In this document: one piece after another, positions 3,541 to 57,941 of the stretch
Numbering within the stretch: position 1 is the first letter of the stretch
Layout: each line of letters starts with the position of its first letter
NCBI GenBank assembly: GCA_000004985.1
Contig: GG738883.1
Strand: one strand, 5' to 3'
Length of the DNA: 64,000 nt
DNA from: Naegleria gruberi
Lineage: Eukaryota
Position numbers and translations under genes: made by a program
Notes under the pieces: generated by a model
Databases searched by the model: none
What the model saw: the letters and a program-made list of their open reading frames with translations, nothing else
Told to the model about the DNA's origin: nothing

Positions 3541-6500
3541 ATGTCAGACCATAAGTTGAAAAAAATGTTTGTTGGTAGCCCATGTCAATACCTCCTTATT
3601 GGGGTAATTGTTTTGCATGCATGCTTGTTTGCTTGTTGCTATCAACCACAGTATGACATGTCTGTTGTGGCAGGTGGTGGATCTTCAATAGGTGATGGAT
3701 TATTAGCAACACAAGCATTGTTATCAGTACCAAGTGGTGGAATTGTTTCAAATTCTGATATTATATTCTGTGATACTAATAATCATAGAATACGTAAGAT
3801 AGATGTGAATGGTATCATGTCAACTATTGCTGGTACTGGTGTTGCAAATTATTCTGGTAAGTTTATAGACTTCACATTGTTCAACAACTTTGGTCAACTC
3901 ACATGCATGTGCAATTCAAATAGGAGATGGAGGAGCCGCAGTTAATGCACAACTAAACTCACCTCAAGGAATTGGAATACTATCAACTGGTGCCATTGTA
4001 TTTTCAGATACATTAAACCACTGTATTAGAAAGATTGAAAATGGAATTATTTCAACATTAGCAGGTAATGGATCACCAGGATTGACAGGTAAGTTTTATA
4101 TGCATACACATGATCTTCTAAAAACCTTGTAGTAGTTGGATCAGCAATCAGTGCTCAATTAAACACACCAACTGCTCTAATTGTTGCAAGTAATGACATT
4201 TATTTTGCTGAAAGTGGAAACCATCTCATTAGAAGAATTAGTTCTTCTGGCATGTTAACAATCTACATTGGAGAGTCAAGTGGAACATCTGGTAGTTCTG
4301 ATACAGGTACAGCTGGAGCATCATTCAAAATGAATACACCAATGGGAATTGTTTTCCATGCAGGAAATTTATACTTTTCAGATTCCAAGAATTATAGAAT
4401 TTGTGTAACCTCTGGTGCATTGATTTCTGTTTTCAAAGCATCATTGACAAGTGAACCACTTGGATTAGCTAGTTATAATGGTAATCTGTATATTGCCATG
4501 AAGGGAAACAAGGTTTTACAAGCAAAGAATTCGAATACAATCATTGATTTTGCTGGAAGTGGAACGAGTGGATATTCAGGAGATGGAGGATTGGGTACAT
4601 CTGCTTTATTGAATGGTCCATCTGCTTTGGCTTTTGATTCGAGTGGAAATTTGCTCATTTCAGATTCTTTCAATAATAGAATTAGAAAAGTTGCAAATGG
4701 AACTATTTCAACTTTGGCTGGAAATAGCAATAGAAATTTTGGAAATGGTGTTTTGGGAACATTGGCTTCATTTTCCTCTCCAAATAGTGTTTATTATACA
4801 GGAAATGATGATTCAGCAGGTGGCATTTTGATTTCTGACACAAATAATCATGTTTTAAGAAGATTGAAAGATGGATACATTTATAATGTGATTGGAAATG
4901 TTGCAATTCCTGGAAACAACAATGGAAATGGAGTGAATGTCAATGATGCAACAGTGAATTCACCTCCATTTGTCATGAAGAGATTTGGTGATTTAATTTA
5001 CTTTTTAGATAATAATGGATGTGCATTGAGAAGAATTGAATCGAATAATGTTTTAACACTTGTGGTAGGAAGTTGCAATACTGCCAATCAAGATTATTTC
5101 CTTTCCAAATCATTTGACATTTCCAATGATGGAATTATTTATATTGCTGATTATTACAATAATAGAATTGCCAAGTTTGAGATTAATAATTCCACTTTGA
5201 CAACCCTTGTTGGACGTTCCTTAAAAGGATTCTTAGATGGAATTGGGTCGAATGCCTTACTCAACTATCCTGAAAGTCTTATTATTGGACCTGATAATAT
5301 GATTTACTTTTCAGATCGTGATAATAATGCAATTAGATCTGTGTCCACAAGTTCTGCTTTGGTTACAACTCTGGCCGGTGACAGATTTAATGGATTTCTT
5401 GGAGATGGTGGTCCAGCTAAATCATCAAGACTTGATTCACCAGGACCTATTCAGTTGACATTAGGTGGTGAGATAATTTTCATGGACAGAGGAAATCAAA
5501 GAATTAGAAAGATTACAAAATATGGAAATATTTTTACTATTTATGGAAATGGATCAACAAGTGTTTTTAAAGATGCTAATGGTTTAACACTTGGTGGAAG
5601 TGGTGAAATTTACATTGCAGATAGTGGAAACAATCTCATCAAAATGTTATCTGCTGCCAAATGTTCAAATGGAACTTTTTACAATTCTTCATCATTTGAA
5701 TGTCAATGTACAGCTGGTTTCTATGGAGAGAATTGCTTGGAATATGATTGCTCAGGAATCAATTGGAGAAACTCGTCCGTTTGTTCAGGAAGAGGTTCAT
5801 GTATTGCGAAAGAAAAGTGTTCTTGCTCTGCCAATTTCACAGGAAGTAATTGTGAAGAATACTATTGTTATGGAGTTAATTCAGTGAATAGCAGTGTTTG
5901 TTCATCCAATGGTCAATGCACAGCTCCAGATAATTGTACCTGTTCATTTGGAACATTTGGGTTGAATTGTGAAAATGCTTATTGTCAAGGAATTGTCTCT
6001 TGGAATGAAACTGTTTGTAATTCGAGAGGAAAATGCATTGGCTACAACAAGTGTACATGCAATAATGGATTTTATGGCAATAATTGTGAATTTTACAATT
6101 GTTTCGGAGTTAAAAACACTGACAGCTCAATATGTTCAGGAAATGGTATTTGTTCCAAAATTGATAATTGCACTTGTTTTGATGGATATTTTGGAAATAA
6201 CTGCTCTGATTTCAATTGTGTTGGAGAGCAGTATATTGGAAAGAACTTGTGTTTGAATAATGGCTCATGCACTGGTCCAGGTGATTGTAAATGTTTGCCT
6301 GAATGGGGTGGCAACATTTGTCAACATGTCAAATGTTTTAACAAGACAGCTGTCGATTCAAATGTTTGTTCATCACATGGTCAATGTTTGTCTTTTAATA
6401 ATTGTTCATGTGATCCAAGATGGATTGGCAGTGATTGTGGCGTGACCACTTGTTTTGGTCAATTATCAAATGATTCGAATAGAGTTTGTTCATCATATGG

Positions 6501-9500
6501 TCAATGTTTAAATCCAGATCAATGCTCTTGTAATAATGGATACAGAGGTGATGAATGTGAATATAGAGTGTGTTATGATTTAATTCACACAGATCCAAAT
6601 GTTTGCTCCTCACATGGTCAATGTGAATCACCAAATAATTGTAAATGTGAAAATGGTTTTGTTGGGGAGAATTGTCAATATCACCAAGTTTATTTAGACA
6701 TTTCAAATGCATTGATTTATTCATATTTTGATTCACTTTTAAATATTTCAACAACAATTGATGGAGGTGATCAAGTATTGTTGAGTAGTGAATGTCAAGA
6801 TTTATTCGAAAGTTCAGAATTGATCAAATTGGGAGAAGCTGATTTGATATCCTGTTATTGGACACCAAATTATTTCAAAATCAAATTGGGATATAATCAC
6901 ATGATTGAACATTTATCCACATTGAAACTGAATTCAAATTTCAATATTTCACTTCAAGTCAATTCAAATTCTTCTTTAATTTTACTCAATCAGCGAACAT
7001 TTTCCTCTTCAATGGATACTTTACTTTTATACATTCCATCCAATCAAGATTTTATCATCAAATCCAGCAGTGATGATTATTATCATACATTTAAGAAAGT
7101 TTCAAAAAGTTGGACATGTGAAAACTGTCCTCAGCCACTTGTCAATTATTTAACAAATTATGAAAATAAGAGTATGATTTTAATACCAACTTCATTGCTG
7201 AATAGCATTCCATTAGATTCTTCATATTCTAAAATTCTTTCACTTAAATATTCATCCATGAATTCAATTCAAAAATCATTGACATCAAGCGACAAGACAA
7301 GAATTGAATCTAATAAGAATTTACCTCCCTCTTTCACATGGCATGGGGATAATGTAAAGGATACACAATTTAAATGTGTTGGACATAATTGTATTATTGA
7401 AAGTTCATTGAATTCAATGAATAGTTCACTTTCATTTACATTCTCTGGATTTTTCAGTTTATTGAATTCACTCTTTTCACAAAAACAAATGTTTAGATTG
7501 GTAAATGTTTATAATAATGAATTGGTGGACAGTGAATATTCATCCAATGCACAAATAGTTGGATTTCAATTGAAAACCTATGTTTCCACTTCACTTTCTT
7601 ATTATTTCTCATATTCAACATTTGATAGATTGGATCATGTTTTGACAAATGTGAATAGAACTCTATCTCTTGATGATTCTAAATTTACAATTTCAATATT
7701 CAATCAAGATCCTTTCATTTCAAGTTTCACATTACCTGAATATTTCACATTCAATTACCAATTTTATCAAATTAATTCAATTGACAATAATTTAAGTAGT
7801 AGTGAAAAAACATTGAATATAGATGTTGAAAAATTGAATTTATCAGAAGGAATGTATTTAGTGAACTTGACACTAACAGTTTCCAAGTCATATGTCACAA
7901 TTCCATATTATTATTTTGGATTTATTCATTTTTATGCTCAATCAAATGTTCCAAAATTAACAATTGATCAATTACCTGCTATTTATCCTTCCAAAAAGGA
8001 TTTACATTTGAAAGTATTGATTCAATCATCAAGTGCAATTCAAAATTATAAATGGAAATTAAAAGAAGGTTTAGTGAAAGAAAGGAAAATAATTGGACAA
8101 TTTTTGGAAAGTTCACAATTTACTCAACTCACGTCTAATACATACAAGAGTGAAATTATAATTAATAGTCAATATTTATTGGAAGGTGAATTTATTTCAT
8201 TTGATTTTTCAGTTTCAAATATGAATGGAATGTCAAATGTTTCATTATCAACTAGAATTGATGAATCTCCAAGATTTTCATGTGAATATTTCAATTTAAA
8301 GAATGAATTTACAAATTATGCATTTGATTCACTTCTTTCCATTTCATGTTTCAATTTACCTGAAGAACCAATTTCAAGTTTTAATTTTGAATTTCATTCC
8401 ATTTATGGAAAGAGATTAAATATCATTTCCAATACATTGAAAAAGAATATCATTACAAGAATACCAATGTACTCATTTGAAGAAGGTAAAATCAATCTTG
8501 TTGTAAAATTAGTGAATAGATATGGCTCAGTTTCACAAATCTCAAAAACTATTTCAGTTTTACCTCCATTAACTATTTACAATTCACAAAATTCAATTCT
8601 ATCAAGATTTAATTATTTTAAACAATCTTTTTATAATTTGAAGTTGAATGAGCCATTGAGAATTGATACTGCTCATTCAATTTATTCCTTAATGAGTATT
8701 CTCATTCAGAACGAAACCATTTCGAATATAAAAGGACAATTAGTGAATGAATTAACAATGGATCAATTATCAACATTTAATTCATTGTTGAAAGATATGA
8801 TTAATCAATTGAAAAGTATTCAATCGTTGACATATAAGGTTGATGAAAAGATAATTCAATTGACACTTCCAATAATTTCACAAATTTATTCGATTCTGGA
8901 TAATTTATCATTGGATGAAAGTTGGATTTCAGATATTTCAAGTTGGCTTGATTGGATTTATTCTGGAATGTCAAATGCCAAACAATATTATTCAGAAATA
9001 TTATTAGAAACTGTACTTTCCACTGAACATTATTCAGAATTGAAAATTATTCAAAATATACTTTCAAAAAGATATTCTAATAGATTGGATAAACAAGAAT
9101 TAATTTCAAAATATAGAGCTCAATATTTAATGTTGACTAAACTGAACGAATCATCAGATGATTCATCTTTTGAAATTTATCAAATAGATATTGCTTCTCA
9201 ATTAAATGGCAAGTCAATTACAACAAACATCAATCAAGATATTCAAATTCAAGCCATACTTCCATCAGATTTAACAAGTCAAGTGTCAAATATTGAAGAT
9301 AATTCACAATTATTTTACTCTTCATCATTAATTTCAAATGACAAGACATTGAATAATATTTTAACAAATAGACCTATTTTGGAATTATCAATTTTTTCAA
9401 AAGATGGTTCATTGACAAGTGTGAATAATTTACAGAATCCAATTCAATTGAAATTCAAAAATTTATTTACAGATTACAAAATCTATACTAATTTATCATG

Positions 9501-46277: not shown

Positions 46278-47912
46278 ATGAAATTGGAACGTTTCTTATT
46301 GCTTGGTGTTACCATGTGGATGGTTGTGGCCATGCTATGGAACGGAAAGATCAACCCAACATGTTCAACAAGTGTATCCTCTCCTGTTCTCTTGATGGTT
46401 AACGCTCAGCAAGACCTTTCCCTTGAAGATTTTGAACAGTTAATCAAGAAGACCTTGAGAAAGGACTGCCCACATTTAAAGAAAGCTGTTAAGGATGGAT
46501 GGAGTGTATGTGATAAGGAGTATGGTGAGTTGGATTTAGCTGGTAAGGCATCTTCCTCTGAAGTGGACATGTCCCTCATTAGGAGTGGATATGGCTACTC
46601 TCCTGTTGAACATGAGATCAAGTTACAAGTATTAGAGTCAGCCAATGCATCAATCATTGATCCACCAATGGTTGAGACTAAGGAAATGCATTTTAGCAAG
46701 GTGAGAGATTTCTACAACCATGTCTATAACATGAATTCCACAAGTCATGTTGCAGTTTTGTACTCTGACACTTTGGAAAATGCCAAACAAACATTCACCA
46801 CTCTTTTCAAATCAAAAACTGATATTCATGCTGTAGATACCAAATATGCTCACTACTCTGTCAAGACCACTAAACAATTACAATTCACCACTAGTTTTCA
46901 AACAATTTTACAAAAACTACCAATGAGTTACCATTCAAAAATTTATGAAAGATTTATCAATATATTTGGAAGTCAAGTAATGACTAGTGTCTTATACGGA
47001 GGATTGGTAGGTCAAACCAGTATCATCAAGTCATGCTATTCAAGTGAAAGTGCAGTTAAATATTCGCAAGCAAGATTACAAAAATTAATGACTGGAACCT
47101 CAGATGTTGACATTCCAAATACCTTCTTGAAATATTCCAAGATTATTTCGAGTGATATCATTGGAGGAAATCCAGAAATTTCCTCAATCAAAAAGAGAGT
47201 TTCAACATTCCCAAAAAATAGTTCACCAATCAAATTCCAAACTGTTCCAATTTGGAAATTAATTCCTGAGGAAAATTATCAAAGAGAACATTTAAAGACT
47301 GCCTATGACAATTTAATGACCAAATCCGCCAACAAATTTGAGAAATTGATTTCAGATATTGAAAATCTCAAGTTGAAACAAAGTGGAGCAGCAATTCCTG
47401 CAAAATTATTCTATTCTCAAAGTGAATGTGGATTCAATTTTGCTAAAGATCGTTGTTATGGAAAACGTAAGACTTCATGTAAAGGTAATAAGCGTTCTGC
47501 ATGTACTGGGCTTGTCAATAAGAAATCTGACATTCATATCGTAAGAGGAGCTCCATCTAAGGTAATTGACAAACTCTGTCCATTTGAATATAGAATGACA
47601 ATCTTCCCTACAGATGTTTATGGTTGCAGATCTGCAGCTGTCAGATTATTTGTCTCAAGAAATTGGCAGGATGAAATTCAAGTGTCAGTTGTCTATTCTT
47701 TCATTGATGACAATTACAAACTTGTTGAACAAGTTGTCTATGTCTCACCACCACAAAAACAAGGTGGATGTATTCAAGTTTCTACTAGCAATTTCAATAA
47801 TGAAGAATTGAGCACTTCTTTGAAGGGTTTGAAATGGAGATTGTGTACTAATTGCATGCCAATGATTGGTAAGGATCATTCATTAAAATGCGGATGTCCA
47901 TATCTTGTTTAG
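46278..47912 (+). CDS. Secreted MACPF-domain (membrane-attack-complex/perforin) protein of 544 aa with a Cys-rich C-terminal domain.
   Basis: The N-terminus LLLGVTMWMVVAMLW is hydrophobic. The MACPF signature is FGSQVMTSVLYGGLVGQ, compared with (Y/F)G(T/S)H(F/Y)..S...GG. The C-terminal region is Cys-rich (CGFNFAKDRCYGKRKTSCKGNKRSAC...). Confidence 0.7.
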   Translation: MKLERFLLLGVTMWMVVAMLWNGKINPTCSTSVSSPVLLMVNAQQDLSLEDFEQLIKKTLRKDCPHLKKAVKDGWSVCDKEYGELDLAGKASSSEVDMSLIRSGYGYSPVEHEIKLQVLESANASIIDPPMVETKEMHFSKVRDFYNHVYNMNSTSHVAVLYSDTLENAKQTFTTLFKSKTDIHAVDTKYAHYSVKTTKQLQFTTSFQTILQKLPMSYHSKIYERFINIFGSQVMTSVLYGGLVGQTSIIKSCYSSESAVKYSQARLQKLMTGTSDVDIPNTFLKYSKIISSDIIGGNPEISSIKKRVSTFPKNSSPIKFQTVPIWKLIPEENYQREHLKTAYDNLMTKSANKFEKLISDIENLKLKQSGAAIPAKLFYSQSECGFNFAKDRCYGKRKTSCKGNKRSACTGLVNKKSDIHIVRGAPSKVIDKLCPFEYRMTIFPTDVYGCRSAAVRLFVSRNWQDEIQVSVVYSFIDDNYKLVEQVVYVSPPQKQGGCIQVSTSNFNNEELSTSLKGLKWRLCTNCMPMIGKDHSLKCGCPYLV

Positions 47913-48002: not shown

Positions 48003-49209
48003 ATGCAAGATGATGATTGCTGCGTCCTCAATCTCGATTTCTCCATTGCTAGTCAATTATTAAAAAATTCATTTAAACAATGCTACAAAAATTCAACAAT
48101 AATTATGGATATAGGAAGTTGTGAAGCAAAGATTGGATTTTCACAAAATCCTGCTGATCCGATAATATTTCCATCAGTATACGGCAATGCGCGATATAAA
48201 TTTTCATTGATGTCTATATTCAATGATGTTGAAGTGGGAGAAAGAGCTCTGCAAAGAAAAGGAGTCTTGTCTTTAAGGTATCCAATGATGGCTAATGGAA
48301 GAACAAGTGATTGGGTTGGAGTGCAAAGGATTTATGATCACTCGTTTGAATTATTGGAATTGGTGGATGTGGATGAGAGATTTATGGTTTTATTGAGCGA
48401 AAATAATGCAACTGGAAATCAATCAAATGTTGTGGAGGAAAGAAAGCAAAAGGCAGAGTATTTGTTTGAAAAAGAGGCCGTGATGAAGATTGGAATGATC
48501 AATCAGACGATAATGACACTTGTGTCTTATGGGTTATATACTGGAACAGTTCTACATTCAGGGAATATCCAATCTTTGGCCATGTGTATTGAAAATTGTA
48601 AATTGGTTTCAGAGATGGAATCTTGTGTTCATAATCAACTTTTGGAAATAGGAGGACATCAAATGACATTGGATTTAGAAGATTTATTTAGAAGAAATGG
48701 TATTACATTAGGACATCACACCAATACCATTTGTACTGAGGTTAAGGAAACTCTATGTAGGGTTAAAATTCCAACACGAACAGTTCAGGATAGAAAATTT
48801 GAGCTTCCAGATGGATCTGATCTGATGATCGAAGGGGAATGGTTGGAACAAATTACAGAAAAATTATTTCATTCAGGTTCATATTGTGTGGAATCATTGA
48901 TCACGAACGCCAAGGCCACACTTTTACAAGAATATTGTGTTGGGAGGTGGAAATTGTCTATTTCCAGGATTTAGGGAACGTTTGCAAATTGAGCTAGATG
49001 CTATAGTATCGTCCCAATATCGCAGCTGTTTGAATGTACTTCCATTTTTGGAAGGGAAGAAAACAGAATATAAGGGAGGTCGTATTCTTTCAGAATTGTC
49101 AACAGTTCAAAAAGGAGCAATGATATCCAAGTCGCAATTTGAAGAACTTGGTTCGTCTATTTTCCACAGATTCCAATCATTCGAAAGGCCAATTTGCGAA
49201 TTTTATTAG
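48003..49209 (+). CDS. Divergent actin-related protein with an apparent +1/-1 frameshift near 48898-48915 that separates the last ~90 codons.
   Basis: The N-terminus IIMDIGSCEAKIGFSQNPADPIIFPSVYG matches actin D-N-G-S-G...FPS. Further actin-like segments are GVLSLRYPMMANGRTSDW, GTVLHSGNIQS and FELPDGSDLMIEGEW. The segment ...SLITNA (frame A) must shift to RPHFYKNIVLGGGNCLFPGFRERLQIE... (frame B, matching actin [20 protein letters not shown]). A TGA precedes frame B at 48898 and frame A terminates at 48972-48974. No intron-sized GT..AG is available at the junction. Confidence 0.6.
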
Positions 49210-52172: not shown

Positions 52173-54578
52173 ATGTTAACAGACTTTGAAATCAATGATG
52201 AGAATAATCATCAGGACGATCAGGGCTATGATGAAATTATTGGAGGAGAAGATCATCATGTTCGTAATAGTAACGAAACAAAATTTGATAATTTACCGGA
52301 GGAAGTAATTGCAAATATTTGTTCATGTTTTATGAGAAATTCAACAACAAATTTAGCAGAAAGAAAAGGACAACAGGATTTTTCTGAAAATTCATTGTTT
52401 GAGTATGAAGATTTTCATACTGTCAATATTGATGATTTAATAGATATTTATCCATTATCGTTACTTAATAGAACTATTAGAAACAAAATTTTAAATAATA
52501 ATCATTTGTGGAATGAACAAATGATTGTTGATCTGAGTGAATTTTCAAAATCAACCAAATTATTTAAATATATGAATAAGATTAATGATTGGAATTATAG
52601 TTCATCTGATGATGATCTAATTGTAACAGTAGAAAGAGAAAGACTAAATATTGCTTTGAACTTTCTTTCATGTCTTGGTTTATCTGAATATATTAAAAAG
52701 TTAAAAGTTAGTTGCATATTGAAAGAAGTTGGGTTGAAGGAATCCATTTCATGGTCAAAACTCATTATTCACTCATTCCCTAATCTAACAGATATCATCT
52801 ATTACAGCCTCACTGATAGAAATGTTGTTAAGAGGTACGAATCCTTAGATTGTACTCAGGGAAAATGGCAAAATTTGAGCTCAATAACTGTTTATTTTGA
52901 TTTTACGTCATTATTATCTTTAATAGAAAACCACAAATCTACTATCAAGTCTATTGCTTTTTCTCCAAAAATGTCAGATAGGAAATCAACAGAAGAACTC
53001 TTAAAAAATCCCAAGATACTGGAAAATGTACAGAACATTATTATTAGTATGAAGTTTGATTCTGCAATGATGGAATCTAACAAAAATTATATGGAAAAGT
53101 TTGGTGCATTAAACATAGATTGTTCTGCTTTAGATATAGAGCGTTGGATTCCAAAACTGACACACCTTAAAAAGTTGGTGTTGGAAGGAATATACAATCC
53201 AAATTTTAAAATTGAAAACGTTAATTTCACAAATTTAACTGAGCTAGTGATATGTTTAGCTAATCAATCGGAATTAGCTTTCAACAATGTTCAAGCTCCA
53301 GAATTGCAAGAGCTTAGCATTTCTAATGCATCAATAGAAGCATCAACAGAGCCATTTAAAAATTTGCGATCATTGAAATTTCAAACTTGTAATTATGATC
53401 AAAATTTTTGGATCAAATCTCACCCTACACTCATGTACTTTAGCTTGTTTTTTCCAGAGTTTAAAGACACTATGTATAATCGCTCATTTTCATTGACTGA
53501 CAATCAAAGCTTACTTGTTATTTTACTTACCTCACTGGAATCTGTCTCTATAACTAACATCAACCCTTCTTGCAAATTATATATTGAAAAATGTCAATCA
53601 ATTCAGATTAATACTAGTAAGATATCTGAAATTTATATACAGAGCTATTCTACTGCTAGCGATATAAATATCAAAGGAGATCACTGTTCAAAACTTCATC
53701 TTCCAAAAGGTATTGAAAAATGTAAAATAGATTTGAATTCAATTAGTGAGATGAACTGTTATTATCAAGATAATTATTCTAAAATATTACCTCTTAGAGC
53801 ACATAACATTTCGTTAGAAACATTGCATATATCCTGCTTTAACATTCCTATTTTTATTAAGGAATTCTTAACATCCTTTAAATATATTGGAACTTGTAAA
53901 TGTGTTATCAGTCATGATCATACATACTCAAAAGTATACAAAAACATTAGTCCAAGCTCTAATCTTGATACTGACATGTCTAGTGTTGAGAAAATAATTA
54001 CTCATGGAGATATATCACTTCATACACATTTGACAAATAGCACCTCCTTACATACAATAATATCTGGAAGCAAATTAATCTGTTCTCCCAATACCACCTA
54101 CTTGAGCACTTCACTCACTCATTTGGAAACAAGTATTCAAAACTTTTCTTCACAATTTGACCTCCCTAATTTGAAAAATTTAATAATTTCTCATTCTGCA
54201 GATATAGAAATTGATCTTTCTCAATATCCACATCTAGAAGATTTTTCAATTTCTCATTCTAAGAATGTAAAAATTCGAAATACATCCAAGAGTATGGAGA
54301 AAATGAAATTTTTCCTATTGGAGGGTATTAATTCTCTTTCAATCAGTATTGATAATGTACAAGCCCCAAATATCCGAGAAGCCATCATTCACTCAATCAA
54401 AAGCATTGAACCTGGTACTGAGCCAATATTCACTTTATCTCATAGCCCAAAGATGCTCTTTTACTATGTTTCATTTGTGTGGAAACCAGCTTTTAAACCA
54501 AACCCACCTCGTACACATCAAGAAACTTTTGTAACGCCAATACCTAACGAAAACACCAGAAATTGTGAAATATTATAA
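52173..54578 (+). CDS. Large hypothetical protein of 801 aa with an F-box-like N-terminal motif and LRR-like repeats.
   Basis: The N-terminal motif is NLPEEVIANICSCF. The downstream region is leucine-rich and repetitive (NLTELVICLANQSELAFNNVQAPELQELSISNASIE...). The start context is AAAAATG. Confidence 0.55.
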   Translation: MLTDFEINDENNHQDDQGYDEIIGGEDHHVRNSNETKFDNLPEEVIANICSCFMRNSTTNLAERKGQQDFSENSLFEYEDFHTVNIDDLIDIYPLSLLNRTIRNKILNNNHLWNEQMIVDLSEFSKSTKLFKYMNKINDWNYSSSDDDLIVTVERERLNIALNFLSCLGLSEYIKKLKVSCILKEVGLKESISWSKLIIHSFPNLTDIIYYSLTDRNVVKRYESLDCTQGKWQNLSSITVYFDFTSLLSLIENHKSTIKSIAFSPKMSDRKSTEELLKNPKILENVQNIIISMKFDSAMMESNKNYMEKFGALNIDCSALDIERWIPKLTHLKKLVLEGIYNPNFKIENVNFTNLTELVICLANQSELAFNNVQAPELQELSISNASIEASTEPFKNLRSLKFQTCNYDQNFWIKSHPTLMYFSLFFPEFKDTMYNRSFSLTDNQSLLVILLTSLESVSITNINPSCKLYIEKCQSIQINTSKISEIYIQSYSTASDINIKGDHCSKLHLPKGIEKCKIDLNSISEMNCYYQDNYSKILPLRAHNISLETLHISCFNIPIFIKEFLTSFKYIGTCKCVISHDHTYSKVYKNISPSSNLDTDMSSVEKIITHGDISLHTHLTNSTSLHTIISGSKLICSPNTTYLSTSLTHLETSIQNFSSQFDLPNLKNLIISHSADIEIDLSQYPHLEDFSISHSKNVKIRNTSKSMEKMKFFLLEGINSLSISIDNVQAPNIREAIIHSIKSIEPGTEPIFTLSHSPKMLFYYVSFVWKPAFKPNPPRTHQETFVTPIPNENTRNCEIL

Positions 54579-54649
54579 CAATTTCTGGTGTGAAATATTA
54601 GAAACTTTGGATAACTTTTTTTCATTGAATCTGTGGCCAATTAATTGTG

Positions 54650-56089
54650 TTACTCCTCATTCATAGAAATTTCTAAAAACCTCGTTCCATTAAAATCTTT
54701 AATTGTTTCAATAACAATCTTATCTATTGGATCTGATAATAGCAATACTTCTAACCCTTTCTTGGAATACTGTTCAATAAGTACTTCATTAATATTGGTT
54801 TCAATGCTTAGCAAAAAGTAAATGAATGTTTGTCCCTCCATCATTCTTGAACAATAATCCCTCAAACTCGACCACTCCGTCCTTTTGCAATTCGAGTGAA
54901 ATCTCAAAAGGTCTGTCAGAAGTAATCTATTTGAATCATCTAAAATCACTCCCATCTTGATTTTCCTTCCAAAATTTTGGTAGAAGTTCTTATAATCATC
55001 CTTATTTTCAGCAAGTCTTTCAAACATTTGCAATGTTGCCCTTGTCACACGTTTCCTTATTACTTTTAAAATTTTGTTTTCAGAAAATTGATATAAATTA
55101 AGAGGTAAATCTTCCGAATCTACCAATACTCTCATGAAATCCAAATAGTCTGGTACAATATATTTGCAATTATCCATTATAAACGTGCTTCTTATGTACA
55201 GATGACTGACAAGCTCATAATTAAAATGGGCCACCTTTGGAATAAACAATAGTAATTTGAATTCAAGAATTCCTTCAACTCTGTAATGAGACATGGTCAA
55301 GTAATCTTCCCAATCATTTGACATTTCCTTATAGAACTGTAAATATTCACTTTTTGAAATTTTTTCAGGATCTCTTGTCCACAAGGGCTGATCTTTGTTC
55401 AAAAACTCACATTTCTGTTCATTATTTTCATCCAGAGTCTGTAGTAACACTGGATATCTAATTGGTTTGGAAAGAACAGTCAGATACATCTTGAGAAATG
55501 AATTATCCAACAATACAAGTGAATCCTCATTCAAATATAGTGTTACTCTTGTTCCTCTTGTCAATTGTTCAGAACTTGTGTCACTTGCTACTTTGAAAAC
55601 TCCATCTCCACTCGATTTCCAAATAAATTGCTCATTTCCATGCATTTTAGATGAAACCACCACTTTTTCAGCAATCATAAATGCTAAATTAAATCCAAAA
55701 CAATTTCCAAACCGTTCCATTACACTACTTTTATCACCTTGTTTCAATAATTCAACATATAATTTCACTCTCTTACTCAAAGAACCTCCTAAATTCAACA
55801 CAAGATCATTCCTTGACATTCCAAATCCTGAATCAATAATACTCAATGATTTACTCTCCAAATCAGGAATTATTTTAATGAATAGTTGAGGTTCACTCAA
55901 CAAGACAGAAGAATCCGATAGACTTGCATATTTAATTCTATCCAAAGCATCAGAAGAGTTGGAAATTAGTGATTTGAGAATAGTTTGCAAGTTATTGGAA
56001 GGAGGAATTTGTTTCAATAATTTGATTAATTCTGCAATTTCCTCTTGAAATAAGAAAGTATCTTCCGATATCTGATGATCTGAAGCCAT
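54650..56089 (-). CDS. HSP90-family paralog (N-terminal GHKL ATPase-like domain plus middle domain) of about 479 aa. It lacks the charged linker tail, the C-terminal dimerisation domain and the MEEVD motif.
   Basis: DTFLFQEEIAELIKLL...LISNSSDALDRIKY, IIDSGFGMS, the middle-domain segments HYRVEGILEFKLLLFIPKVAHF and NKILKVIRKRVTRATLQMFERLAENKDDYKNFYQNFGRKIKMGV, and LEVLLLSDPIDKIVIETIKDF all align collinearly to HSP90. The position equivalent to the catalytic Glu in RELISNSSDALDK is Ser (KSLISN). The glycine-rich lid GQFGVGFYS is degenerate (GNCFGFNLA). The start is taken at MASDH (AAAAAAATGGCT). Confidence 0.8.
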   Translation of the reverse strand: MASDHQISEDTFLFQEEIAELIKLLKQIPPSNNLQTILKSLISNSSDALDRIKYASLSDSSVLLSEPQLFIKIIPDLESKSLSIIDSGFGMSRNDLVLNLGGSLSKRVKLYVELLKQGDKSSVMERFGNCFGFNLAFMIAEKVVVSSKMHGNEQFIWKSSGDGVFKVASDTSSEQLTRGTRVTLYLNEDSLVLLDNSFLKMYLTVLSKPIRYPVLLQTLDENNEQKCEFLNKDQPLWTRDPEKISKSEYLQFYKEMSNDWEDYLTMSHYRVEGILEFKLLLFIPKVAHFNYELVSHLYIRSTFIMDNCKYIVPDYLDFMRVLVDSEDLPLNLYQFSENKILKVIRKRVTRATLQMFERLAENKDDYKNFYQNFGRKIKMGVILDDSNRLLLTDLLRFHSNCKRTEWSSLRDYCSRMMEGQTFIYFLLSIETNINEVLIEQYSKKGLEVLLLSDPIDKIVIETIKDFNGTRFLEISMNEE

Positions 56090-56573
56090 TTTTTTAATAT
56101 ATTGTAATGGATAATATTTTGTAAACAACATGCAGGAAAAATAGCGTTGGTCTGATGAAAATTAAATTGTCATCAACACAATTTCTTATGGAAAGACACC
56201 ATACAATAAAAGTAAGTTGTAGGTTCAATTACTGGTCCTAACAAGGATTTTTCTTCAGCTAAAACACTCAAAAAAATACAACAAATTCACTTCTAAAAAA
56301 AACCTCCATCGGTACGGTTTTGGCTTTTTTCGTTCTCTTCATCACAAAGTTAAACCGTTGTTGTGTATTTTAAAAAGGCTTTGCAGAATAAGAAATAACA
56401 TCGGCCCACAACATCAACATCTTCAACAACAACAACAACAAAATTTAAAAACACAACAGGTGATAGATTTCTACCTGATACAATCTAGGCTATTAACTGA
56501 TTCATCATCAATTTGATCAAAATACTTTTCAACAATACAATTTCACGGATATGATAAAAACAAAACAATCACA

Positions 56574-57941
56574 ATGAATACTCAACTCTCCAATAATAAC
56601 CAATCCTCTTCCTCTGAACCCCACGAAATTTCAACTCACAAACAAAATGATGAAGCAAACAATATTCCAGTTGACGTTGCTTCTGGTGATCCTAATTCCC
56701 AATCATGGGTGAATTTACAACAACAGTTCATGGGAAATCCACATTACATGCCACCAAATATGACACCACAACAATACTATTATATGACTCTGTGGTTAAT
56801 GCAACAAAACGGAGGCAAGGATGATCCCAATAAGAAGAAAACAGACAATCCATCAATAATAGATCCATCAGGTGCTGCTCCAAACGGAGAAGCTGAAAAT
56901 CCATTAGGTATCTACCCACCACAAGTATATTTCCCATTTCCTGGCAACAATCCACCAAATAATTCACAAATTCCATCCCTAAATGTTGTTCAATCACAAG
57001 AAGACACAAACATTTCACAAGAAGCTGCAACACAAGAAAAGAAAACTAAAAGAAGAACAAAAGCCGCATCAACAACTCCTAAATCTTCAACTAAAAAACG
57101 AAAAAACACAAAGGAAGCAACAACTCCTGTTGAAGAAAGTTCTAACACACCAGATACACCAAAGAAAAAAAAGAAAAAGGAAACAACTTCTTCAAATGCA
57201 GGATCTAGTAGTAGAGGATCGAGAGGAGGACTTAGACATTTTAGTTTTAAAGTTTGCGAACTTGTTCAAAGAAAGAAAACAACTACAATTAATGATGTTG
57301 CTGATGAACTGGTTCAAGCAGAACTTCAAGATGAAGACAGTAAATCTGATGACAAGAACATTAGACGACGTGTTTATGATGCTCTCAACGTTTTAATGGC
57401 TTTAAATATTATTTCAAAAGATAAGAAAGAGATTAAGTGGAAGGGTTTACCTGTAGATTCACAAAAAGAATGTGAAGCATTGAATCAAATCAAATTACAA
57501 CGTTTAGAAATGATTCAAAAAAAAACTCAACAATTACAAGAACTTGAAAAACAACATCGATCATTATCAAGTTTATGTCAAAGAAATTCAAGCATGAATT
57601 TTGCAGAATCTAAGAGGATTGAATTACCTTTTATTATTGTTCATACATCAAAATCAACACAAATTGAATGCGAAATGGATGAAAATAGGTCTGAGGTATT
57701 TTTCAATTTCGACAAGCCTTTCGAAATTCATGATGATAATGAGATTTTATATAGGTTAAATCTAGGTTCAGATCAAAATCAATCTTCAAATCAACCAAGT
57801 GAGTCGAATAATATGAACATTTCAACATCAGGTCAAGCAGAAGATGACTTCTTTTCATTGGAACAACCCACAAACACTTCCTCTCCAAAAAAACCTTCTA
57901 ATAGCACTTCAAACAATGAAAAAGATATGGACACTCAATAA
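56574..57941 (+). CDS. Transcription factor DP (E2F dimerisation partner) homolog, 455 aa.
   Basis: The DNA-binding/dimerisation region [31 protein letters not shown]...[33 protein letters not shown] is highly similar to TFDP1 ([30 protein letters not shown]...[32 protein letters not shown]). Confidence 0.85.
   Translation: [455 protein letters not shown]

What the first reader, a model, noticed from the sequence alone, without database searches (positions are those of the whole stretch)
54650..56089. Truncated HSP90-like paralog with Ser in place of the catalytic Glu and no C-terminal dimerisation domain
The protein aligns collinearly to the HSP90 N-terminal and middle domains but stops after the middle domain, with no CTD and no MEEVD. 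The ATP-hydrolysis Glu (RELISNSSDALDK) is replaced by Ser and the Gly-rich lid is degenerate, while the ATP-binding Asp (IIDSGFGMS) and Asn are kept. This predicts an ATP-binding but hydrolysis-deficient, possibly monomeric, HSP90-like pseudo-chaperone. That would be an unusual divergent paralog rather than a housekeeping HSP90.
Basis: partly seen in the sequence, partly recalled or inferred. Interest (0 to 1): 0.6.

Follow-up and report, generated by a model that had tools for sequence, protein, structure and literature searches.

The report
CTD-less, ATPase-dead HSP90 paralog (Naegleria)
This is a real but odd extra copy of the HSP90 chaperone gene in the amoeba Naegleria gruberi: it keeps the first two domains, has lost the dimerising tail and the residues needed to burn ATP, has no counterpart in any other sequenced organism, and has not been studied.

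Summary
Window 54650-56089 (minus strand) is one uninterrupted 479-codon ORF, identical to the Naegleria gruberi model NAEGRDRAFT_44674 ("predicted protein"). It aligns collinearly with the HSP90 N-terminal and middle domains and stops at the M/C boundary. No C-terminal domain is coded anywhere in the 64 kb. The catalytic Glu is Ser.

The tools add further losses. The middle-domain catalytic Arg is Gln, beside a 2-residue deletion. The lid's phosphate-binding glycines are disrupted. The charged linker is absent. The adenine-pocket residues are kept. Of 19 lost family-invariant residues, 13 lie in the ATPase segments (p = 3.5e-4).

It is not random decay. Neutral drift to the same divergence gave at least 9 stop codons in all 300 simulations, and the real substitutions are conservative.

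It is an orphan. No specific relative exists in two very large protein libraries, and it is absent from the syntenic N. lovaniensis locus. A canonical 707-aa HSP90 ending MEDVD sits on another scaffold.

Best reading: a selected, probably monomeric, hydrolysis-dead HSP90-like pseudo-chaperone. Expression and function are untested. Moderate interest.

The parts
54650..56089 (-). Complete CDS of the HSP90-like paralog (479 aa plus TAA). It is a single exon and equals N. gruberi NAEGRDRAFT_44674 / XP_002674661.
   Evidence: ORF list. 100% identity to P0001. Pfam HSP90 6.7e-79.
56090..56131 (-). In-frame upstream extension from an earlier ATG (14 codons, MLFTKYYPLQYIKK). It is probably 5' UTR, because the HSP90 alignment and the annotated model start at the second ATG.
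55433..56065 (-). N-terminal GHKL/Bergerat nucleotide-binding domain (aa 9-219). The predicted fold is confident (pLDDT mostly 80-95).
   Evidence: PDB alignment. AlphaFold model. Foldseek.
55970..55972 (-). Codon TCA = Ser40, at the position of the catalytic Glu (yeast E33 / human E47). The neighbouring Arg (yeast R32) is Lys.
55685..55789 (-). Degenerate ATP lid (aa 101-135). Replacements in yeast numbering: K98->S, S99->K, G100->R, T101->V, G118->E, Y125->N. There is also a 2-residue insertion (NC) inside GxxGxG.
55403..55432 (-). Remnant of the charged linker (about 10 residues, against about 60 in the canonical N. gruberi HSP90).
   Evidence: Pairwise alignment.
54671..55402 (-). Middle domain (aa 230-473). 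The distal half is predicted confidently (pLDDT 85-93). The first alpha-beta-alpha subdomain (aa 230-340) is predicted poorly.
   Evidence: Pfam HSP90 match 237-490 in 493-aa numbering..
55076..55111 (-). Middle-domain catalytic loop, DLPLNLYQ--FSEN against DLPLNISREHLQQN. The catalytic Arg (yeast R380) is Gln334 (CAA, 55088-55090). There is a 2-residue deletion, and yeast Q384 is Ser.
54650..54652 (-). TAA stop codon at the M/C domain boundary, followed by a second in-frame TAA two codons later. No HSP90-like sequence follows in any frame.
54579..54649 (.). 71-nt spacer to the convergent 801-aa ORF (52173-54578, +). A 14-nt perfect inverted repeat (54553-54566 / 54578-54591) lies at its far end.
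56132..56573 (.). Divergent intergenic region shared with the E2F/DP transcription-factor gene (56574-57941, +). It is the presumed promoter. No heat-shock-element-like GAAnnTTCnnGAA site (<=1 mismatch) occurs here.

Best explanation
This is a genuine single-exon protein-coding gene of Naegleria gruberi. It descends from a cytosolic-type (HSP90A-like) HSP90 and has become an N+M-only pseudo-ATPase.

Shown:
- It keeps the GHKL nucleotide-binding fold and the middle domain.
- It lacks the charged linker, the whole C-terminal dimerisation domain and the MEEVD tail.
- It has lost the catalytic Glu, the neighbouring Arg, the M-domain catalytic Arg and Gln, and the phosphate-binding lid glycines.
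- It keeps the adenine-pocket residues (yeast N37, D40, D79, G83, M84, N92, F124, T171).
- Its divergence took place under protein-level purifying selection.

Inferred from established HSP90 biochemistry (my own knowledge): E33A binds but does not hydrolyse ATP, R380A cripples ATPase, and removing the CTD abolishes constitutive dimerisation and most ATPase activity. On that basis the product cannot run the ATP-driven clamp cycle. It is most likely monomeric, and TPR co-chaperones cannot recruit it.

The most likely way it works is as an ATP-independent binding module. It would act as a holdase or decoy that uses the conserved distal middle-domain surfaces, such as the intact NKILKVIRK helix and the Trp of NDWED, to bind clients or co-chaperones of the Aha1 type without processing them. 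That last functional step is speculative.
For: Family and extent:
- Pfam, PDB and Foldseek all identify HSP90 NTD plus MD only.
- There is no CTD anywhere in the window by tblastn or by a profile HMM with positive controls.

Targeted loss of the ATPase machinery:
- 71 columns in N+M are >=93% conserved across 88 HSP90-family proteins. The paralog keeps 52 of them.
- 13 of the 19 losses lie in three segments defined beforehand: the catalytic helix, the lid and the M catalytic loop (Fisher p=3.5e-4).

Selection:
- 300 neutral-drift simulations to the same identity gave a mean of 19 stop codons and a minimum of 9. The observed number is 0.
- The mean BLOSUM62 score of mismatches is +0.15, against -0.62 +/- 0.12 under neutrality.

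Native gene and origin:
- GC, GC3 and codon usage match the neighbouring genes.
- It is of cytosolic type: 47-48% identity to cytosolic HSP90s, against 36-37% to Grp94 and 34-37% to the HtpG/TRAP1-like set.
- A canonical HSP90 is present elsewhere in the genome (P0068).

Fold: the NTD and the distal MD are predicted confidently.
Against: - No expression, proteomic or literature evidence for this gene was found.
- No ortholog exists in N. fowleri, N. lovaniensis, Willaertia or any other source. Selection therefore cannot be measured by dN/dS, and the gene is evidently dispensable for other Naegleria species.
- The first MD subdomain, including the catalytic loop and the shortened amphipathic loop, is predicted with low confidence (pLDDT 35-58). 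It may be partly unfolded.
- An intact ORF does not exclude very recent inactivation, for example a dead promoter.
- Retention of the adenine pocket may reflect fold constraints rather than ligand binding.
Confidence: 0.62

Rival explanations
1. It is a non-functional relic: a duplicated or acquired HSP90 copy that lost its 3' part and its catalytic residues and is no longer expressed or useful. It would be an unprocessed pseudogene that happens still to be open.
For: - It is a singleton with no ortholog anywhere.
- It is absent from the syntenic N. lovaniensis locus.
- Several hallmark residues are lost, and the predicted structure is weak for aa 230-340.
- No heat-shock-element-like site lies upstream.
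- Truncated HSP90 ORFs regarded as products of nonsense mutations are documented in Trichomonas vaginalis (PMC5973626).
- Degenerate HSP90 copies occur sporadically in other eukaryotes.
Against: - At this level of divergence, neutral evolution always produced stop codons: at least 9 in each of 300 simulations. It also produced far less conservative replacements than observed, about 6.7 SD apart.
- 73% of the family-invariant residues are kept, and the losses are concentrated in the ATPase machinery rather than spread evenly.
- Unlike the T. vaginalis cases, no homologous CTD-coding remnant follows the stop.
- Codon usage is normal.
Confidence: 0.22
2. It is the N-terminal half of a split HSP90 gene. 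Its transcript would be joined to a separately encoded CTD by cis- or trans-splicing, as for Giardia HspN/HspC.
For: - Giardia provides a precedent (PMC4006730, PMC8494341).
- A GT dinucleotide overlaps the stop codon (GA|GTAACA, 54650-54655).
- The ORF ends exactly at a domain boundary.
Against: - There is no CTD-like coding sequence in the 54.6 kb downstream or the 7.9 kb upstream, in any frame.
- The genome already has a complete canonical HSP90 (P0068).
- This copy has dead catalytic residues, so restoring a CTD would not restore a working chaperone.
- A GT at a given site is expected by chance.
- The public gene model is single-exon.
- I could not search the rest of the N. gruberi genome for an orphan CTD gene.
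Confidence: 0.03
3. This rival concerns origin and is compatible with the best explanation. The gene would not be a recent duplicate of the Naegleria housekeeping HSP90. It would be either an old paralog lost in the other heteroloboseans or a copy taken from another eukaryote.
For: - At 11 columns where N. gruberi, N. fowleri and Willaertia canonical HSP90s share a lineage-specific residue, the paralog has the heterolobosean state once, the pan-eukaryotic majority state six times, and neither four times.
- Its identity to Naegleria HSP90 (44-45%) is no higher than to plant or algal HSP90s (up to 47%).
- It occupies a position where N. lovaniensis has two unrelated genes.
Against: - Composition and codon usage are fully native.
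- No donor lineage stands out.
- Neighbour-joining placement is dominated by long-branch attraction.
- The sample is small (11 columns).
Confidence: 0.5

Closest known systems
Canonical cytosolic HSP90 (HSP90A family: yeast Hsp82, human HSP90-alpha/beta, N. gruberi NAEGRDRAFT_52089)
   Same: - The NTD (GHKL fold) and MD are collinear, at 44-47% identity.
- The adenine-pocket residues are kept.
- The DSEDLPLN motif, the NKILKVIRK helix and the NDWED Trp are kept.
   Different: - No charged linker, no CTD and no MEEVD.
- Catalytic Glu->Ser.
- M-domain Arg->Gln with a 2-residue deletion.
- The lid GxxGxG is disrupted.
- A 7-residue deletion in the MD amphipathic loop.
- Its terminal branch is about 35 times the median for cytosolic HSP90s in the NJ tree (0.59 against 0.016).
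Truncated cytosolic HSP90 ORFs of Trichomonas vaginalis (PMC5973626)
   Same: They are extra cytosolic-type HSP90 copies in a protist genome that would encode the NTD plus some or all of the MD only.
   Different: According to that paper, the T. vaginalis copies are the products of nonsense mutations. The C-terminal halves are still present downstream and are annotated as separate genes. Here no CTD remnant exists, the copy is extremely divergent, and the catalytic residues specifically are lost.
Giardia lamblia split HSP90 (HspN/HspC, trans-spliced)
   Same: It is an ORF encoding only an N-terminal part of HSP90.
   Different: In Giardia the two halves together make the only, catalytically competent HSP90. 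Here a full-length HSP90 exists elsewhere, this copy is catalytically dead, and it ends at the domain boundary with its own stop codon.
Other degenerate HSP90 paralogs found here (metagenomic P0290; Bolivina argentea P0244)
   Same: - P0290 also has Ser at the catalytic-Glu position, a degenerate lid, no catalytic Arg and no charged linker.
- P0244 lacks the Arg and ends at the same M/C boundary.
   Different: - There is no specific relationship. The fraction of shared derived states is 0.20-0.22, the same as for any pair of divergent copies.
- P0290 keeps a CTD.
- These are independent degenerations.
Engineered Hsp90 N-M fragments and E33A / R380A mutants (laboratory constructs; from my own knowledge of the Hsp90 literature)
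   Same: The domain content and the predicted biochemistry match: nucleotide binding without hydrolysis, no constitutive dimer, and residual binding of Aha1 and clients through the MD.
   Different: Those are artificial constructs. This is a natural gene that combines all three lesions.

Membership tests
HSP90 family (Pfam PF00183 plus GHKL HATPase_c) | Significant match to the HSP90 family profile | tested here: met
   PF00183 scores 266.6 bits against a gathering threshold of 24.4, covering profile positions 75-340 of 518 only. phmmer against Hsp90-alpha gives 2e-109.
HSP90 family (Pfam PF00183 plus GHKL HATPase_c) | GHKL N-terminal domain with motif I (ExxxN), motif II (DxGxG) and motif III (GxxGxG) | tested here: not met
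   The fold is present. Motif I is SxxxN (Glu lost). Motif II, DSGFG, is kept. Motif III is ExxG-NC-xG, with the first Gly lost and an insertion. HATPase_c scores 20.7 bits, below its 26.4 threshold.
HSP90 family (Pfam PF00183 plus GHKL HATPase_c) | Middle domain with a catalytic-loop Arg (yeast R380) that completes the ATPase site | tested here: not met
   The MD is present. Arg->Gln334, with a 2-residue deletion and Q384->Ser.
HSP90 family (Pfam PF00183 plus GHKL HATPase_c) | C-terminal dimerisation domain | tested here: not met
   The ORF stops at the M/C boundary. The CTD HMM and tblastn are negative over the whole window, with positive controls.
Cytosolic HSP90A subfamily | Closest to cytosolic HSP90 rather than Grp94, TRAP1 or HtpG | tested here: met
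   370 bits to HSP90-alpha, against 276 for Grp94, 266 for HtpG and 159 for TRAP1. Identity is 47-48%, against 36-37% and 34-37%.
Cytosolic HSP90A subfamily | C-terminal MEEVD motif for TPR co-chaperones, and a charged linker | tested here: not met
   The protein ends ...LEISMNEE. The linker is reduced to about 10 residues.
Pseudoenzyme (catalytically dead paralog kept by selection) | Loss of catalytic residues with retention of the fold | tested here: met
Pseudoenzyme (catalytically dead paralog kept by selection) | Evidence of purifying selection on the protein | tested here: inconclusive
   The neutral simulations argue strongly for past selection. No ortholog or population data exist for a dN/dS test.
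Pseudoenzyme (catalytically dead paralog kept by selection) | Expressed protein that lacks the activity | not testable with these tools
   No transcript or proteome data were accessible. No literature mentions the gene.
Split / trans-spliced HSP90 (Giardia type) | A separate CTD-encoding ORF, and no full-length HSP90 gene in the genome | tested here: not met
   A full-length canonical HSP90 (P0068) exists. No CTD ORF lies in the window. The rest of the genome was not searchable.
Nonsense-truncated HSP90 pseudogene (T. vaginalis type) | Homologous CTD-coding sequence continues after the premature stop | tested here: not met
   Nothing HSP90-like follows the stop in any frame.

The most novel reading that the evidence does not exclude
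NAEGRDRAFT_44674 is an expressed, selected 'pseudo-HSP90'. It would be a natural monomeric N+M module that still binds adenine nucleotides or another small ligand but cannot hydrolyse ATP. It would tune the canonical HSP90 cycle by sequestering clients or MD-binding co-chaperones of the Aha1 type. That would make it the first natural regulator of the HSP90 system built from HSP90 itself. The independent Glu->Ser change in an unrelated metagenomic paralog (P0290) hints that such dead HSP90s are a recurrent evolutionary solution.
Probability: 0.2. Interest if true: 0.6.

Novelty: new variant of a known kind. Interest (0 to 1): 0.38.

Why it matters
HSP90 is usually described as an obligate dimeric, ATP-driven clamp. 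I found no report of a catalytically dead or dimerisation-less paralog of it in the literature searched here. Such dead paralogs are well known for kinases, phosphatases and other enzyme families (my own knowledge).

If this gene is expressed, it is a naturally occurring version of the laboratory N-M / E33A / R380A constructs. It would test directly which HSP90 functions survive without ATP hydrolysis and without dimerisation, for example client holding, co-chaperone binding and nucleotide sensing. It would also be an example of a chaperone paralog recruited as a regulator or decoy.

If it is not expressed, it is simply a lineage-specific relic. The main practical value would then be for annotation: it should not be counted as a functional HSP90 or as a drug target in Naegleria surveys.

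Tried and rejected
1. Downstream or other exon supplying a CTD. tblastn with three canonical HSP90s and a CTD profile HMM over 1741 six-frame segments found nothing. Rejected within the window.

2. Catalytic Glu at a shifted position. The helix aligns without gaps. Rejected.

3. Orthologs elsewhere. None was found by any of these:
- the word-indexed search of 5.8 billion proteins;
- the exhaustive HMMER search of 1.84 billion cluster representatives;
- the metagenome contig scan;
- the viral contig scan.
The best non-self hit, P0241, is a partial but otherwise canonical Oikopleura HSP90.

4. Synteny. The DP-neighbour ortholog led to the N. lovaniensis locus L001. The flanking genes are collinear, but there is no HSP90-like sequence there.

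5. A clade of dead HSP90s. Neighbour-joining paired the query with P0290 in 90 of 100 bootstraps. The count of shared derived states showed no excess over other divergent pairs. Rejected as long-branch attraction.

6. Heat-shock element upstream. None was found at <=1 mismatch. This is weak evidence, because Naegleria promoter elements are not known to me.

7. Recent foreign origin judged by composition. GC3 and codon usage are ordinary.

8. Literature. Nothing was found for the locus tag or accessions. The N. gruberi 'HSP90' used in an RT-qPCR study is a different gene, XM_002682845. Searches for pseudo-ATPase HSP90 paralogs gave nothing relevant.

9. My first alignment script timed out. It was rerun with faster settings.
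Full report
**What is there**

Window 54650-56131 on the minus strand is one uninterrupted ORF of 493 codons from the first ATG. They match exactly the public gene model P0001 = XP_002674661 / EFC41917 / NAEGRDRAFT_44674, a 479-aa 'predicted protein' of Naegleria gruberi on a 371-kb scaffold. The window is therefore nuclear DNA of the heterolobosean amoeboflagellate N. gruberi. Residue numbers below use the 479-aa model unless stated.

**Check of the observation**

Family and extent:
- Pfam reports HSP90 (PF00183) at 6.7e-79, but only for profile positions 75-340 of 518. HATPase_c scores 20.7 bits, below its gathering threshold of 26.4.
- phmmer against all PDB sequences puts human HSP90-alpha and -beta first (about 1e-109). 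Grp94 (276 bits), HtpG (266) and TRAP1 (159) follow.
- The alignment runs from Hsp90-alpha residue 17 to 544, which is the NTD plus the whole MD. The charged linker is skipped, and the ORF ends 5 residues later.

- LKSLISNSSDALD faces LRELISNSSDALD, so the catalytic Glu (human E47, yeast E33) is Ser40. Its codon is TCA at 55970-55972.
- The Mg-binding Asn and the adenine-binding Asp (IIDSGFGMS) are retained.
- GQFGVGFYS has become ERFGNCFGFNL.

**Additional defects**

- The middle-domain catalytic loop reads DLPLNLYQ--FSENK against DLPLNISREHLQQNK. The catalytic Arg (yeast R380, human R400) is Gln334 (CAA, 55088-55090). Two residues are deleted, and yeast Q384 is Ser.
- The Arg next to the catalytic Glu (yeast R32) is Lys.
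- The lid residues K98, S99, G100, T101 and G118 (yeast numbering) are all replaced.
- Seven residues of the MD amphipathic loop are deleted.
- About 50 residues of charged linker are missing.

I aligned 88 HSP90-family proteins: cytosolic, Grp94 and a mixed set of 600-700-aa sequences that includes HtpG- and TRAP1-like proteins. In the N+M region, 71 columns are at least 93% conserved. The paralog keeps 52 of them. Thirteen of the 19 losses fall in three segments defined beforehand: the catalytic helix, the lid and the M catalytic loop. Elsewhere 6 of 47 are lost (Fisher one-sided p = 3.5e-4).

The adenine-pocket residues are all intact (yeast N37, D40, A41, D79, G83, M84, N92, F124, T171). 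The decay is therefore aimed at hydrolysis and phosphate gripping, not at the fold or the adenine pocket.

**Is a CTD supplied from elsewhere?**

- After the TAA at 54650-54652 a second in-frame TAA follows two codons later. The translation beyond it is unrelated to HSP90.
- tblastn with the canonical HSP90s of N. gruberi, N. fowleri and Willaertia magna finds only this locus in the whole window at E<=10.
- A profile HMM of the CTD, searched with filters off against all 1741 six-frame segments of 20 aa or more, gives a best E of 1.9. The same HMM recovers the very divergent CTDs of two control proteins at 1.9e-23 and 7.4e-39.
- The neighbouring 801-aa ORF (52173-54578, +) is convergent, 71 nt away, and has its own ortholog in N. 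lovaniensis.
- A GT dinucleotide overlaps the stop codon, but nothing is available for it to splice to.

A cis-spliced CTD exon within 54.6 kb is excluded. A Giardia-style trans-spliced partner (PMC4006730, PMC8494341) cannot be excluded formally, because I could not search the rest of the genome. It is unlikely, because N. gruberi already has a complete canonical HSP90 (P0068, 707 aa, ending MEDVD, on another scaffold) and because this copy is catalytically dead.

**Real gene or decaying relic?**

No ortholog is available, so dN/dS cannot be computed. As a substitute I simulated neutral drift. The starting point was the canonical N. gruberi sequence at the aligned positions, back-translated with local codon usage. 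It was mutated until amino-acid identity fell to the observed 46%.
- All 300 replicates acquired stop codons (mean 19, minimum 9). The real ORF has none.
- The mean BLOSUM62 score of the mismatched positions is +0.15 for the real protein, against -0.62 +/- 0.12 in the simulations.

The divergence therefore took place under selection for a folded protein. GC, GC3 and codon usage are indistinguishable from those of the neighbouring genes.

AlphaFold2, run with a 51-sequence alignment, gives mean pLDDT 77. The NTD and the distal half of the MD are confident (80-95). Residues 230-340 are poor (35-58). These form the first MD subdomain, which carries the altered catalytic loop and the shortened amphipathic loop. 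Foldseek retrieves Hsp90 structures at 1e-43.

**Distribution and origin**

- In a search of 5.8 billion proteins, nothing exceeded 44% BLASTP identity. All hits are ordinary cytosolic HSP90s.
- An exhaustive HMMER pass over 1.84 billion cluster representatives gave no specific relative. The top non-self hit, P0241, is a partial but otherwise canonical Oikopleura HSP90.
- Metagenome and viral contig scans found nothing.
- The adjacent E2F/DP gene (56574-57941) has 63-64% identical orthologs in N. lovaniensis and N. fowleri.
- In the N. lovaniensis locus the flanking genes are collinear with the window. Between the LRR-like gene and DP it carries a PAS-guanylate cyclase and a Y_phosphatase2 gene, and no HSP90-like sequence.

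The paralog is thus restricted, as far as current data go, to N. gruberi. It does not look like a recent copy of the housekeeping gene.
- At 11 columns where the three heterolobosean canonical HSP90s share a lineage-specific residue, it has that residue once, the pan-eukaryotic state six times, and neither four times.
- In the 51-sequence alignment it is no closer to Naegleria HSP90 (44-45%) than to plant or algal HSP90s (up to 47%).

An old paralog lost elsewhere and a copy acquired from another eukaryote both remain possible.

Neighbour-joining paired it with P0290, a metagenomic HSP90-like protein that strikingly also has Ser at the catalytic-Glu position, a degenerate lid and no catalytic Arg. 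The two share derived states no more often (0.20) than any other pair of divergent copies does (0.08-0.24). I therefore treat the pairing as long-branch attraction and the Glu->Ser change as convergent.

**How it most likely works**

The following rests on established HSP90 biochemistry, from my own knowledge of the field:
- E33A binds ATP but cannot hydrolyse it.
- R380 of the M-domain loop contacts the gamma-phosphate.
- Lid closure and N-terminal dimerisation need ATP.
- The CTD provides the constitutive dimer.
- MEEVD recruits TPR co-chaperones.

On that basis this protein cannot run the ATP-driven clamp cycle. It is most probably monomeric and is invisible to Hop- or PP5-type co-chaperones.

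What it keeps is the adenine pocket and the conserved surfaces of the MD. Examples are the NKILKVIRK helix, which contains the Aha1-contacting residues of yeast Hsp82, and the Trp of NDWED in the client-binding patch.

My best guess is an ATP-independent binding module. It would act as a holdase, or as a decoy for clients or MD-binding co-chaperones. The domain content, the residue losses and the past selection are shown. Monomer status, nucleotide binding and the decoy role are inferred.

The main rival is a relic that is no longer expressed (about 0.2). It is supported by the orphan status, the weakly predicted MD subdomain, the lack of an HSE-like site upstream and the complete absence of literature or expression data.

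**Comparison with known cases**

It belongs to the HSP90 superfamily by homology and is of cytosolic type. It fails three defining functional features of an HSP90 chaperone: the catalytic Glu, the catalytic Arg and the CTD. It should not be annotated as a functional HSP90.
- The truncated HSP90 ORFs of Trichomonas vaginalis (PMC5973626) are nonsense-interrupted copies whose C-terminal halves still lie downstream. That is not so here.
- Giardia's HspN is half of the only HSP90 in that organism. That is not so here.
- Other degenerate HSP90 copies exist sporadically: Bolivina, Flectonema, Reticulomyxa, Juncus, Cuscuta and metagenomic P0290. None is related to this one.

I found no paper describing a natural CTD-less, catalytically dead HSP90.

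**Verdict**

This is a new variant of a known kind: a lineage-specific pseudo-ATPase derivative of HSP90. Interest is moderate (0.38). It is unusual and cheap to test, but it is confined to one species and has no evidence of expression.

Noticed in passing
window 48003-48974 (+): A 323-aa ORF matches only the first half of the Pfam Actin profile (positions 3-194 of 410, E=7.9e-27). It could be another truncated paralog of a housekeeping family, or an intron-split gene.
   Followed up: no
window 46278-47912 (+): A 544-aa ORF carries a MAC/perforin (MACPF) domain (E=5.7e-13).
   Followed up: no
window 54553-54566 / 54578-54591: A 14-nt perfect inverted repeat (ACACCAGAAATTGT / ACAATTTCTGGTGT) straddles the stop codon of the 801-aa ORF, in the short gap between the two convergent genes. 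It may be a shared 3'-end or termination hairpin.
   Followed up: partly
window 54579-56573 compared with L001 6742-9586 (N. lovaniensis): This is a synteny break. Between the LRR-like gene and the DP gene, N. lovaniensis has a PAS-guanylate cyclase and a Y_phosphatase2 gene, whereas N. gruberi has the HSP90-like gene. L001 15297-17396 (a 563-aa gene) also has no counterpart in the window.
   Followed up: partly
protein P0290 (metagenome; not in the window): This is an unrelated HSP90-like protein of 613 aa. It also has Ser at the catalytic-Glu position (FFRSLISDASNALD), N37->D, a degenerate lid and no catalytic Arg, but it keeps a divergent CTD. It appears to be an independent, convergent ATPase-dead HSP90.
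   Followed up: partly
window 52173-54578 (+): An 801-aa ORF has no Pfam hit, but to my eye its sequence looks repetitive and leucine-rich. It is conserved in N. lovaniensis (L001 about 4650-6500), where the gene model (291 aa, 5461-6503) seems to cover only part of the homologous region.
   Followed up: no
window 54001-56000: This 2-kb bin has the strongest negative GC skew in the window (-0.255). It coincides with the minus-strand HSP90-like CDS and is probably just a coding-strand purine bias.
   Followed up: no
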